8,482 bases of DNA, taken from positions 1-8,482 of the IMG/VR virus record IMGVR_UViG_2703718806_000006; one strand, 5' to 3'. This document shows, piece after piece, positions 6,001 to 8,482 of the stretch (its first letter is position 1; every line of letters starts with the position of its first letter). The position numbers are program-made. Origin of the DNA: a virus. Its lineage: Duplodnaviria > Heunggongvirae > Uroviricota > Caudoviricetes.

Positions 6001-8482
6001 TATCTATGTCAAATACACAGAAAATTATTAACACTGAAAAATATAACGAGTGGGTGAAAAATTCTCTGAGCAGATTTTTAAAATTACTGGCGACGAGAAT
6101 GTGGCAAAAAATGAATTAGAACCGTGGACACCTGAAGGAAACGCACCAAATTATTGCTGGTGGGAGGTTGATCCGGTTGATGCTGCAAATGAAGCCATGA
6201 GTTACCACAACGATTAATGTCGGGAGGCCGCCCGAAAGGGCGGTAAGAAATGACTACATTATTCAGAAAAGAATATCCGCAAAAAAGTAGGGCGACAGAA
6301 TTTTTGTTTCACATTCTGTTTATCGTATTGATGATACCGATATCCCCTCTAATTTTTGTCTGGGCAATCGGGAAAATAATTGAGCCAGTTACTGAATTGT
6401 ATACCGACGTTGTATGGGCGTCGTTCAACACACTGCACAATAAAATTAATCCGTATAAGGAAAACTGATATGGCAACTTTGACAAAAAAAGAACGGGCAT
6501 GGTTGAACGAATTACAGGAAGTTCTTGATCGCTGTCCATCACCGAAAAAAATTGGCTTTTACACCATTGGCGATAAAAGCATTTACCTGTATGACCTACG
6601 CCGCATGGATGAAATCATGGAGGCTCTTGATAATCGTTCGTCGATGGATTGGTGTGTTGCTGTTCATGATATGAATGCAGGGTTTGATGAAAAGATTTTG
6701 TTCCCCTCATCAGTTGAAAGCACTGCGGGTTAAGGAGTAACACATGACCACTATTACCAAAGAACGTATTGAATTGTTCATTAAAAACCCGCTTGAAAAC
6801 GGGCTTACCCGTGGTGAACAAATGGAACTGGCACGGATTGCGCTGGCATCGCTGGAAGCAGAGCCGGTTGTGTTCTGGTTTGAAAAATATCAAGAAGGGG
6901 CTACGGCATGACGACTTTTACCAGGGAGCAGTTAATAGCTCACGCAGAGGAGACTATTGAAGCACAGAGACTGTGCATACCGGGCACAATCGACCATGAC
7001 ATCATCCGCACATATAAGATGGATATTGCTGTTCTGGAAATCGCACTGGTATCGCTGGCAGCAGAGCCAGCCGGTAAATTGCATGAATACAAACCAGTGG
7101 GATATCAGCGTCTGGTCGATGAGTTAACCATGCTGGTAAAGCAGTTAACCTGGCAACTGAGGAAAGCGAAGCCAGACTGCAAATTACCGGATAAGGCGAT
7201 GAGTTATCTGGAGCGGAACGGACTGATAAGCGTGGAGGATATTTTACGATGACCTGGTCTGAAGCATTCACAACGGTAGGAATCGCACTGGCGGTGGCGC
7301 TGGTGGTGTATTCGATTTGCCGCTGGGGATAAAAACGGTTTGCGGGAAAAGGAGAGTTAAGTAGAATTGCTGCGGGTGCTTGAGGCTGTTTGCCTCGGGC
7401 ATGCCTCCGTAAGGCAGACAGAGAAAAGCCCCAGTTAACATTATGCGTCTTGCAGGACGCTTAACATTAATCTGAGGCCATATCTATGACTTGCACACTT
7501 AGATTAGCCTCTTATGCGCCGAAAGGCAAGGAGCAGCAGGCTATGAAGCAGCAAAAGGCGATGCTAATCGCCCTGATCGTCATCTGTATTACCGTCGTTG
7601 TAACGGTACTGGTAACGAGGAAAGACCTCTGCGAGGTACGAATCCGAACCGGCCAGACGGAGGTCGCTGTCTTCACAGCTTACGAATCTGAGAAGTAAGA
7701 GACCCGGCGAGGGAGAAATCCCTCGCCACCTCTGATGTGTCAGGCATCCTCAACGCACCCGCACTTACCCCGTTTCGGCAGACTTTGTTTTTTCCTGGCA
7801 TTCTGGTTTACAATTCGCACGTCAGCCTGAACAACTGGCACCTGCTGCGTCACCGGAGAACCCGATGGCGCAACATATAAAATCCCACAATTCTGAAGCC
7901 GTCCCGGCCATTAAGCGGGGGCGGCATTCGCACGTATTTAAAACCGACTGGTACCAGCATCCCCCATGCACTGAAGAACAGGCCGAATGGCTGATTCAGT
8001 GTTACCGCAGGCGCGGATACGAGGTTAAGAAAGCCATCAGCCTCGATTATCGTCACTGGATAATCTCTGTCAGGCTCCCTTATTCCGAACATCCACCGCG
8101 TCCGTCCCGCACATTCCAGCAACGTATCTGGAGGTAACGTGCGGGTATTACTTCGACCTGTTCTGGTGCCGGAACTTGGCCTGGTGGTCCTTAAGCCCGG
8201 ACGCGAATCACTGCCTGTTTTTCATTGCGGCAGGGTGCTGGTGGAGCCGGAACCGAAAAACATGCGCGGTCTGCCGTCCGGAGTCGTTCCTGCCGTTCGC
8301 CAGCCGCTGGCAGAGGATAAAACATTACTGCCATTTTTCAGCGATGAGCGGGTTATTCGTGCAGCAGGTGGTGCAGGTGCACTGTCTGACTGGTTATTAC
8401 GTCACGTGAAATCCTGCCAGTGGCCACACGGCGATTATCATCACAGCGAAACCGTCATTCACCGTTATGGTACCGGCGCGAT

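What the first reader, a model, noticed from the sequence alone, without database searches (positions are those of the whole stretch)
7430..7793. Prophage-borne hok/mok/sok-like type I toxin locus with a predicted antisense promoter
The Hok/Gef homologue (7543-7698) has an in-frame 19-codon upstream extension (mok-like, ATG 7486). A good minus-strand promoter (TTGCCT-17-TAATCT, 7529-7501) would produce an antisense RNA across the mok start. A 9-bp GAAA-tetraloop hairpin and a T6 run lie in the 3' region. A 10-codon upstream ORF in another frame (7514-7546) also ends overlapping the hok ATG. Together with the ParE system and the YdaT-family gene, this places two toxin loci and one toxin-labelled gene within 8.5 kb.
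Basis: partly seen in the sequence, partly recalled or inferred. Interest (0 to 1): 0.5.

Follow-up and report, generated by a model that had tools for sequence, protein, structure and literature searches.

The report
Known hok/mok/sok toxin-antitoxin locus in prophage

Summary
The finding is real and correctly interpreted, but already known. Window 7543-7698 encodes a 51-aa Hok/Gef toxin (Pfam PF01848, E=1.6e-23). The leader 7374-7548 matches Rfam RF01794 at 112.7 bits against a gathering score of 59. The region aligns without indels to phage 933W, whose record annotates mokW, hokW and sokW. The predicted antisense -10 (TAATCT, 7506-7501) is the homologue of the -10 that Takada et al. 2021 mutated to silence sokW in prophage Sp5. 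The hexamers alone score only 7/12 and are not above chance.

The locus extends further left than reported. It includes a hok promoter (7340-7367), a start near 7374, and the tac and anti-SD elements. The requested fold shows 5'-3' pairing (7374-7385 with 7748-7760, probability at least 0.91), and this pairing covaries across about 40 loci. The GAAA hairpin is the conserved 3' stem-loop of the processed mRNA.

Two details do not hold. The T6 run follows a terminator stem that has decayed. The 10-codon uORF is present in only 2 of 66 loci. Similar DNA occurs in 4720 of 5426 complete E. coli genomes.

The parts
7340..7367 (+). Putative hok/mok mRNA promoter: -35 TTGCGG (7340-7345), 16-nt spacer, -10 TAGAAT (7362-7367)
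   Evidence: Read from the sequence. It is identical in 933W, and the -10 aligns with TATGAT of the R1-type locus. It scores 8/12 to consensus and is not picked up by the consensus scan. The assignment is inferred by homology.
7374..7793 (+). Full-length hok/mok mRNA. The 5' end at about 7374/7375 is set by homology. The 3' end is uncertain, somewhere beyond fbi.
   Evidence: The Rfam RF01794 match starts at 7374. The R1-type +1 (GGCGCTTGAGG) aligns to 7375. The fold is -158.6 kcal/mol, z=-4.97.
7374..7385 (+). tac element (5' end, GGGUGCUUGAGG). It pairs with fbi in the full-length mRNA and forms a local 5' hairpin once fbi is removed.
   Evidence: In the MFE it pairs with 7748-7760, and each pair has probability 0.91-1.00. 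When fbi is removed, 7378-7386 refold onto 7392-7400. The sequence is invariant in alignment A1.
7428..7432 (+). Anti-SD / upstream complementary box (GCCCC) that sequesters the mok Shine-Dalgarno sequence
   Evidence: AGCCCC is invariant across the window, 933W, hokC and the R1 type. It pairs with 7474-7478 in the predicted folds. The role is taken from the R1 model summarised in PMC9841398.
7424..7494 (-). Sok antisense RNA (about 71 nt): a 15-nt single-stranded 5' tail complementary to the mok start region, then a long stem-loop and a UUUU tail
   Evidence: These are the coordinates of the sokW misc_RNA of 933W transferred through a gap-free alignment. The fold is -27.6 kcal/mol, z=-5.1. 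sokW RNA was detected by northern blot and shown to be antitoxic in Sp5.
7501..7529 (-). sok promoter: -35 TTGCCT (7529-7524), 17-nt spacer, -10 TAATCT (7506-7501)
   Evidence: Read from the sequence. The position is homologous to TTGCGC-17-TATCCT of the R1 type and TTGCCT-17-TAACCT of 933W/Sp5. The Sp5 -10 was mutated to make the 'pro-less' construct (primer YO-421). The hexamers score only 7/12.
7474..7477 (+). mok Shine-Dalgarno sequence (GAGG), 8 nt before the mok ATG
   Evidence: GAGGC is invariant in A1. The R1 mok SD is likewise a GAGG motif (PMC9841398).
7486..7698 (+). mok: 70 codons, that is 19 leader codons in frame with hok and sharing its stop codon
   Evidence: ORF list. It has the same layout as mokW in 933W and mokC in K-12. 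An in-frame ATG 57 nt upstream of hok is present in most loci, including the R1 type and Photorhabdus.
7514..7546 (+). 10-codon uORF (MRRKARSSRL) whose TGA overlaps the hok ATG. Judged incidental.
   Evidence: Present in the sequence. It has no SD-like sequence upstream. Its ATG is absent from 933W, hokC and the R1 type. It is found only in the window and L006 among the loci compared.
7528..7533 (+). hok Shine-Dalgarno sequence (AAGGAG)
   Evidence: CAAGGAG is invariant in A1.
7543..7698 (+). hok toxin gene, 51 aa (MKQQKAMLIALIVICITVVVTVLVTRKDLCEVRIRTGQTEVAVFTAYESEK)
   Evidence: Pfam PF01848, E=1.6e-23, 82.4 bits against a cut-off of 22. It is 90% identical to HokW, 86% to HokC and 45% to R1 Hok. 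RefSeq annotates the 99% identical copy as a Hok/Gef family protein.
7706..7727 (+). 3' stem-loop (9 bp, GAAA loop). It is the homologue of the terminal stem of the processed, translatable hok mRNA and would protect it from 3' exonucleases.
   Evidence: Folds as a hairpin. A stable G+C-rich hairpin is present in 45 of 47 distinct tails, with differing stem sequences. Pair 7710-7723 is A-T here and G-C in 933W. It lies at +333 to +354 from the start, against about +335 to +358 in the R1 type, where G345 and C358 mutations destabilise the truncated mRNA.
7748..7760 (+). fbi element (CCUCAACGCACCC) complementary to tac, with C7754 bulged
   Evidence: MFE and base-pair probabilities. Covariation across loci: C-G 26, U-A 14, with 2 exceptions. 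Homology with P1-like plasmid hokD-type loci ends exactly at 7760.
7768..7793 (+). Decayed intrinsic terminator: arms CCCCGT/GCAGAC around a TTCG loop, then TTTG and the T6 run (7788-7793)
   Evidence: Relatives L006, L007, L008, L011, L013, L014 and L024 have ACCCGC-TTCG-GCGGGT followed by a T run, at -12.8 to -20.9 kcal/mol. The window gives -2.7, with 3 of 6 pairs broken. The terminator scan finds none. The window's exact variant is a minority allele: 37 of 1844 matching E. coli records are at least 99% identical.

Best explanation
The region from about 7340 to about 7793 is a complete hok/mok/sok type I toxin-antitoxin module of the hokW/hokD/hokC clade. It sits in the early-right part of a lambdoid prophage.

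Mechanism, taken from the R1 paradigm and the Sp5 hokW-sokW experiments and applied here by homology:
1. A weak promoter (7340-7367) makes a stable mRNA of about 390-420 nt starting near 7374.
2. In the full-length form the 5' end (tac, 7374-7385) pairs with fbi (7748-7760). The mok Shine-Dalgarno sequence (7474-7477) is held by the anti-SD box GCCCC (7428-7432). As a result neither ribosomes nor Sok act on the RNA.
3. Slow 3' trimming back to the hairpin at 7706-7727 removes fbi. The 5' end refolds, and the mok start region becomes accessible.
4. Hok (7543-7698) is translated only when ribosomes translate mok (7486 onward) into the hok start region.
5. A short-lived antisense RNA of about 71 nt, Sok (7494 to 7424, promoter TTGCCT-17-TAATCT), pairs through its single-stranded 5' tail with the mok start region. 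It blocks mok translation and marks the duplex for RNase III.
6. When Sok supply stops, through prophage induction, loss of the element or a transcription block, the stored mRNA yields Hok. Hok inserts in the inner membrane and kills or lyses the cell.

Shown here: sequence and structural homology of every element, the long-range pairing and its covariation. Inferred: transcription starts, Sok expression, mok dependence and toxicity of this particular allele.
For: - Pfam HOK_GEF, E=1.6e-23.
- Rfam RF01794, 112.7 bits against a gathering score of 59, over 7374-7548.
- The alignment to 933W has no gaps. Its annotated mokW, hokW and sokW map to 7486-7698, 7543-7698 and 7494-7424.
- K-12 mokC and hokC share one stop codon, as mok and hok do here.
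- Sok folds as a 5' tail plus stem-loop plus U4, z=-5.1.
- tac-fbi pairs have probability 0.91-1.0. The third mRNA position covaries with its partner: C-G 26, U-A 14, and 2 exceptions.
- Removing fbi refolds the 5' end into a local hairpin.
- The 3' stem-loop is conserved in 45 of 47 distinct tails.
- The mok ATG lies 57 nt upstream, in frame, in most of about 66 loci from Escherichia to Photorhabdus.
- Experiments on the 90% identical Sp5 locus show several things: HokW is toxic, and sokW expressed from its own promoter neutralises it. The -10 mutation abolishes protection. Both RNAs are seen on northern blots. HokW appears in the inner membrane after induction (PMC8621323).
- R1 mutagenesis shows that the mok start codon, the tac stem, the anti-SD and the 3' stem are all required (PMC9841398).
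Against: - No transcript data exist for this allele.
- Both promoters are weak consensus matches (7/12 and 8/12) and are missed by the scan.
- The intrinsic terminator that follows fbi in most close relatives is degraded here. The 3' end, and therefore the stability of the full-length mRNA, is uncertain.
- Thermodynamic folding does not reproduce release of the mok SD in the truncated RNA. Its unpaired probability is 0.25 in both forms.
- Many chromosomal hok copies in E. coli are known to be inactive, so an intact sequence does not prove activity.
- NCBIfam Hok models score below their curated cut-offs (51.2 against 73). This only reflects subfamily divergence.
Confidence: 0.88

Rival explanations
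1. The locus is a decaying, non-functional hok relic. It resembles several chromosomal hok copies of E. coli K-12, retained only because it rides on a prophage.
For: The terminator stem after fbi has lost 3 of 6 pairs compared with close relatives (-2.7 against -12.8 to -20.9 kcal/mol). E. coli genomes carry many copies (median 2 and up to 10 places per genome). Some relatives lack the whole leader, as L009, L010 and L016 have no tac motif. Others are cut by an insertion sequence, as IS186 lies 20 bp after hokC in K-12. The downstream ORF is annotated as frameshifted in the closest genome.
Against: The toxin ORF, the mok ATG and SD, the hok SD, both promoters, tac, anti-SD, fbi, the Sok stem-loop and the 3' stem-loop are all intact and at conserved spacing. 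The experimentally active Sp5/933W locus also has no hairpin after fbi (-0.9 kcal/mol), so the terminator is not needed for function. The same allele persists in dozens of genomes.
Confidence: 0.12
2. The module is active, but its main role is not prophage maintenance. It either helps lysis and phage release on induction, as shown for Sp5, or acts as an abortive-infection barrier to other phages, as reported for R1 hok/sok against T4.
For: In Sp5, sokW disappears and HokW is made after mitomycin C in a RecA-dependent way. Deleting the locus delays growth arrest and halves released phage (PMC8621323). The same paper cites reduced T4 plating by R1 hok/sok. hok genes are about four-fold enriched in prophages (bioRxiv 10.1101/2025.08.07.668861). 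Here the locus lies downstream of, and in the same direction as, the early-right genes. Induction transcripts would therefore run against the sok promoter; this last point is inference.
Against: Nothing in the sequence distinguishes these roles, and they are compatible with the molecular mechanism in the best explanation. In 933W the locus sits in a different part of the genome, so a position-specific read-through model cannot be general.
Confidence: 0.5
3. hok translation is coupled to the 10-codon uORF (7514-7546), whose stop overlaps the hok ATG, rather than to mok. Because this uORF lies outside the Sok-complementary region, that would give Sok-independent expression.
For: The ATGA overlap between the uORF stop and the hok start is real. 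The uORF start (7514) lies to the right of the Sok-complementary stretch 7424-7494.
Against: There is no Shine-Dalgarno-like sequence before 7514. The ATG arises from a single change in the sok promoter spacer and is absent in 933W, hokC and the R1 type. It is present in only 2 of the 66 loci that carry the leader. A Sok-independent route to Hok would be expected to be lethal.
Confidence: 0.03

Closest known systems
hokW-mokW-sokW of Stx2 phages 933W and Sp5 (E. coli O157:H7)
   Same: The window is 89.7% identical at the nucleotide level over 7330-7769, with no indels. The lengths and positions of mok (70 codons), hok (51 codons) and sok (71 nt) are identical. The -35 (TTGCCT) and spacer length are the same, as are tac, fbi and the hok promoter. 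The 27-codon ORF upstream is also shared. The system was experimentally shown to be a type I TA system.
   Different: Hok differs at 5 of 51 residues. The sok -10 is TAATCT rather than TAACCT. The extra uORF ATG is absent from 933W. The DNA after fbi is unrelated. The position in the phage genome differs: here it follows the replication and DUF1627/DUF977 genes, whereas in 933W it lies near the end of the map, beside L0134-L0141.
hok/mok/sok (parB) of plasmid R1
   Same: It has the same architecture, element by element: a start at GG(C/U)GCUUGAGG, the AGCCCC anti-SD, the GAGG mok SD, a mok ATG 57 nt before and in frame with hok, an antisense promoter at the same place, a 3' stem-loop and fbi.
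   Different: Hok is only 45% identical. The R1 leader has a first hairpin about 17 nt longer. R1 keeps a strong terminator after fbi (-25.1 kcal/mol). The R1 locus is plasmid-borne and acts in post-segregational killing.
hokC (gef)/mokC/sokC of E. coli K-12
   Same: Hok is 86% identical. mokC is in frame and shares its stop with hokC, and sokC is annotated antisense across the mokC start. The leader is alignable.
   Different: The K-12 copy has IS186 20 bp downstream of the stop, so fbi is missing (L022 has no fbi). The Sok stem-loop region is shorter. It is chromosomal, not prophage-borne.
hokD (relF) type loci, including those of P1-like phage-plasmids
   Same: The plasmid copies annotated as hokD are 86-87% identical over window 7362-7760. 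That interval runs exactly from the -10 to the end of fbi and defines the mobile module.
   Different: Several chromosomal copies whose Hok is about 90% identical (L009, L010, L016) have no tac/leader motif upstream. From my own knowledge, K-12 hokD lies behind relBE without its own mok and sok. The window copy has the full leader.

Membership tests
hok/mok/sok type I toxin-antitoxin family (R1 paradigm) | Small (about 50 aa) Hok/Gef membrane toxin ORF | tested here: met
   PF01848: E=1.6e-23, 82.4 bits against a cut-off of 22, covering the full 42-position profile. The residues invariant across the four proteins aligned here are all kept, including T25-R26-K27, L29-C30-E31 and Y47-E48-S49.
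hok/mok/sok type I toxin-antitoxin family (R1 paradigm) | Overlapping leader ORF (mok) with its own SD, starting upstream of hok | tested here: met
   ATG 7486 is preceded by GAGG at 7474-7477 and lies 57 nt upstream of hok, in frame. The ATG and GAGGC columns are invariant in A1. The same 57-nt offset is seen in most loci. It is annotated as mokW and mokC in 933W and K-12.
hok/mok/sok type I toxin-antitoxin family (R1 paradigm) | hok translation depends on mok translation | not testable with these tools
   This was shown for R1 (PMC9841398). It has not been tested for hokW or for this allele.
hok/mok/sok type I toxin-antitoxin family (R1 paradigm) | Cis-encoded antisense RNA gene (sok) opposite the mok start, with its own promoter and terminator stem-loop | tested here: met
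   The promoter hexamers are at the position homologous to those of R1 and Sp5. The 71-nt RNA folds into a 5' tail plus stem-loop plus U4, z=-5.1. It is annotated as sokW in 933W. Expression itself was not testable here.
hok/mok/sok type I toxin-antitoxin family (R1 paradigm) | Conserved hok leader sequence and structure (Rfam RF01794 at or above the gathering score) | tested here: met
   112.7 bits against 59, E=1e-25, covering model positions 1-157 of 157. The match is on the hok-sense strand.
hok/mok/sok type I toxin-antitoxin family (R1 paradigm) | Long-range 5'-3' pairing (tac with fbi) that locks the full-length mRNA | tested here: met
   12 pairs between 7374-7385 and 7748-7760, with probability 0.91-1.0. 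Covariation is C-G 26 and U-A 14, with 2 exceptions.
hok/mok/sok type I toxin-antitoxin family (R1 paradigm) | Anti-SD (ucb) sequestering the mok SD, with refolding after 3' processing (tac/ucb, SD/dcb) | tested here: inconclusive
   The invariant GCCCC (7428-7432) pairs with the mok SD in the predicted folds, and the 5' end refolds when fbi is removed. However, the MFE and partition function do not show SD release: unpaired probability is 0.25 in both forms.
hok/mok/sok type I toxin-antitoxin family (R1 paradigm) | Stable stem-loop just after the hok stop, forming the 3' end of the processed mRNA | tested here: met
   7706-7727 folds at -20.7 kcal/mol. A stable hairpin is present in 45 of 47 distinct homologous tails. 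The position matches the R1 stem that contains G345 and C358.
hok/mok/sok type I toxin-antitoxin family (R1 paradigm) | Intrinsic terminator after fbi (a usual feature, not a defining one) | tested here: not met
   The stem is degraded (-2.7 kcal/mol) although the T run remains. The experimentally active 933W/Sp5 locus also lacks a hairpin there, so this does not exclude membership.
hok/mok/sok type I toxin-antitoxin family (R1 paradigm) | Hok is toxic and is neutralised by Sok | not testable with these tools
   This was shown for the 90% identical HokW/sokW of Sp5. It has not been shown for this allele.
hokW-sokW subgroup of lambdoid/Stx prophages | Near-identical, colinear module from the promoter to fbi | tested here: met
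   89.7-92% identity to 933W, Sp5 and other lambdoid phages, with no indels up to 7769. There is 99% identity to a copy in an Stx2a prophage of strain 2014C-3097.

The most novel reading that the evidence does not exclude
This minority allele may be regulated differently from the textbook locus. It combines a lost terminator stem after fbi with a new ATG in the sok promoter spacer, which creates a uORF stop-start overlap with hok. One possibility is that hok transcripts read through into the downstream nin-region genes, so that the pool of full-length, fbi-locked mRNA and its 3' processing are altered. Another is a low level of Sok-independent hok translation.

Separately, the conserved but unannotated 27-codon membrane-peptide ORF (7249-7332), directly upstream in several prophages, could be a real small protein functionally linked to the hok module.
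Probability: 0.07. Interest if true: 0.35.

Novelty: already known. Interest (0 to 1): 0.1.

Why it matters
This matters little as a discovery. hok/sok is the founding type I toxin-antitoxin system. The prophage version was annotated in phage 933W (GenBank AF125520) and characterised experimentally in 2021. Similar DNA is present in 4720 of 5426 complete E. coli genomes.

The practical value lies in annotation. RefSeq marks only the 51-aa Hok CDS in the nearest genome, with no mok and no sok. The Rfam 'sok' model matches the hok-sense strand over 175 nt rather than the antisense RNA of about 71 nt. Automated annotation therefore under-describes, or mis-strands, the regulatory parts. For phage biology the locus is relevant because the Sp5 homologue speeds lysis and doubles phage release from an Stx prophage.

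Tried and rejected
- The consensus promoter and terminator scan over 7200-7900 found nothing. Both promoters fall below its 9/12 threshold, and the Sok terminator and the 3' region do not fit its rules. The scan was therefore uninformative rather than negative evidence.
- Counting promoter-like sites showed that 7/12 matches occur about 32 times per kb. I therefore rejected the hexamers alone as evidence.
- NCBIfam gave only sub-threshold Hok hits (51.2 against 73 bits).
- Pfam and NCBIfam found nothing for the flanking ORFs 6908-7252, 7249-7332 and 7865-8137.
- Thermodynamic folding of a truncated mRNA (7374-7732) did not reproduce the expected opening of the mok SD. Equilibrium folding cannot test that step.
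- I considered and rejected the T6 run as a working intrinsic terminator.
- I considered and rejected the uORF as a conserved coupling device.
- I checked whether an in-frame mok is unusual. It is not: mokC, mokW and the R1-type locus all have it.
- A search with the whole window found no identical copy. The best match covers 80% at 98.5% identity, so the window is a mosaic lambdoid prophage segment.
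Full report
**Observation.**
- The hok ORF runs from 7543 to 7698.
- An in-frame ATG lies at 7486, 19 codons upstream.
- The minus-strand hexamers are TTGCCT (7529-7524) and TAATCT (7506-7501), separated by 17 nt.
- A 9-bp hairpin with a GAAA loop occupies 7706-7727.
- A T6 run lies at 7788-7793.
- A 10-codon ORF spans 7514-7546, and its TGA overlaps the hok ATG.

**Identity.** The 51-aa product matches Pfam HOK_GEF at E=1.6e-23. The leader 7374-7548 matches Rfam RF01794 ('sok') at 112.7 bits against a gathering score of 59, over the whole model. 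That match is on the plus strand, and the model consensus ends at the hok AUG. It therefore certifies homology of the hok leader rather than the antisense transcript itself.

DNA similar to 7330-7810 is found in 4720 of 5426 complete E. coli genomes. The best match is 99% identical and lies inside an Stx2a prophage, where RefSeq annotates only a 'Hok/Gef family protein'. It also occurs in 102 phage records.

Phage 933W (AF125520) is 89.7% identical and annotates mokW, hokW and a 71-nt antisense sokW. The two sequences align without gaps up to about 7769. These features therefore transfer exactly to window 7486-7698, 7543-7698 and 7494-7424 on the minus strand.

**Antisense promoter.** The hexamers score only 7/12 against consensus. 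Sites that good occur about 32 times per kb in this window, and the consensus scan reports no promoter, so 'good' is an overstatement. The promoter is credible because of positional homology. It aligns with TTGCGC-17-TATCCT at the corresponding place in the R1-type locus and with TTGCCT-17-TAACCT of 933W/Sp5. Takada et al. (PMC8621323) abolished sokW protection by mutating precisely that -10. Their primer YO-421 changes TAGGTTAG to CCGGCTCG. The predicted Sok RNA has a 15-nt single-stranded 5' tail covering the mok AUG, then a long stem-loop and UUUU (-27.6 kcal/mol, z=-5.1).

**True extent and remaining elements.**
- Alignment with 933W, K-12 hokC and an R1-type plasmid locus shows an invariant mRNA 5' end, GG(U/C)GCUUGAGGC, at 7374/7375.
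- It is preceded by TTGCGG-16-TAGAAT (7340-7367).
- The box AGCCCC (7427-7432) and the mok SD GAGGC (7474-7478) are also invariant.

Folding the 420-nt RNA 7374-7793 gives z=-4.97. It pairs 7374-7385 with 7748-7760, each pair at probability 0.91-1.00.

Across hok loci fetched from 80 places in species-representative genomes, 42 had a recognisable fbi. In these the third mRNA base covaries with its fbi partner: C-G in 26, U-A in 14, with one C.A and one U.G. Removing fbi refolds the 5' end into a local hairpin. Equilibrium folding does not reproduce the opening of the mok SD, so that step stays inferred.

An in-frame mok is normal. mokC and hokC share a stop codon, as do mokW and hokW. The 57-nt in-frame offset recurs in the R1-type, Escherichia and Photorhabdus loci.

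**The 3' region.** The GAAA hairpin is not a terminator. It lies at +333 to +354. This corresponds to the terminal stem of the processed R1 mRNA, where mutations G345A and C358A remove the truncated RNA. A stable G+C-rich hairpin follows the stop codon in 45 of 47 distinct homologous tails. One pair is A-T in the window and G-C in 933W.

The T6 run is what remains of a real terminator. Close relatives have ACCCGC-TTCG-GCGGGT followed by a T run directly after fbi (-12.8 to -20.9 kcal/mol). The window has CCCCGT-TTCG-GCAGAC, with three of six pairs broken (-2.7 kcal/mol). This variant is a minority allele: 37 of 1844 matching E. coli records are at least 99% identical. The experimentally active 933W/Sp5 locus also has no hairpin there, so I do not read this as inactivation. 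The 3' end of the transcript is nevertheless uncertain.

**The uORF.** Its ATG comes from one substitution in the sok promoter spacer. It has no SD. It is absent from 933W, hokC and the R1 type. It is present in only two of the 66 loci that carry the leader. I treat it as incidental.

**Mechanism.** The best-supported reading is the canonical one.
1. A stable, translationally locked mRNA is made.
2. Slow 3' trimming activates it.
3. hok translation is coupled to mok.
4. An unstable antisense Sok blocks mok and triggers RNase III cleavage.
5. Hok is made, and kills through the inner membrane, once Sok is no longer supplied.

In Sp5 this happens on RecA-dependent prophage induction. There it advances growth arrest and doubles phage release. 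In the window the locus lies downstream of, and in the same direction as, the early-right genes: cro-like, YdaT, DnaT-like, P, DUF1627 and DUF977. Induction transcripts would therefore oppose the sok promoter. This is my inference and is untested.

**Rivals.**
- An inactive relic: about 0.12.
- A lysis-helper or phage-exclusion role rather than prophage maintenance: compatible with the mechanism and undecidable from sequence.
- uORF coupling: about 0.03.

**Novelty.** None in kind. The locus is a close relative of hokW-mokW-sokW, which is annotated in 933W and was characterised in 2021. hok genes are known to be enriched in prophages (bioRxiv 10.1101/2025.08.07.668861).

Noticed in passing
window 7249-7332 (+): An unannotated 27-codon ORF ([27 protein letters not shown], a single hydrophobic helix). 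Its ATG overlaps the TGA of the upstream ORF 6908-7252 as ATGA. It stays open at exactly 27 codons, with both synonymous and non-synonymous changes, in 933W (L003 1420-1503), L001, L008, L013 and L034. It has no Pfam or NCBIfam hit. It may be a real small membrane protein sitting next to the hok promoter.
   Followed up: partly
window 7374-7548 (+): The Rfam family named 'sok antitoxin' (RF01794) matches the hok-mRNA sense strand. Its consensus contains the hok SD and ends at the hok AUG. The real Sok is a 71-nt RNA on the opposite strand. Annotation taken straight from Rfam would put 'sok' on the wrong strand and make it more than twice too long.
   Followed up: partly
window 1379-2378 (-): An HTH_3 regulator (1878-2378), a PaaA2-type antitoxin (1669-1860) and a ParE toxin (1379-1669) lie in one operon-like row. 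From my own knowledge this resembles the three-component paaR-paaA-parE systems of O157:H7 prophages, in which the regulator doubles as the prophage repressor. I did not test this here.
   Followed up: no
window 2745-3170 (+): The 'toxin YdaT' label (PF06254) sits at the cII position, after a cro-like HTH gene (2486-2761). From my own knowledge YdaT has been described as a CII-like regulator rather than a toxin. I did not test this here.
   Followed up: no
window 7362-7760 compared with plasmid hits H28-H37: Homology with hokD-annotated loci on P1-like plasmids of about 95 kb begins at the hok -10 and ends at the last base of fbi (query 33-431). Homology with 933W also stops a few bases after fbi. 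The promoter-to-fbi unit therefore behaves as a discrete mobile cassette, and the terminator and flanks are exchanged around it.
   Followed up: partly
window 7865-8137 (+): The 90-aa ORF downstream of the hok locus has no family match. Its counterpart is annotated as a frameshifted pseudogene in the closest genome (L001 8536-8807). With the terminator stem decayed, it could be co-transcribed with hok.
   Followed up: no
whole window: No complete E. coli genome in the collection carries the whole 8.5-kb window. The best match covers 80% at 98.5% identity, in two pieces. The segment is a mosaic of lambdoid prophage modules.
   Followed up: partly
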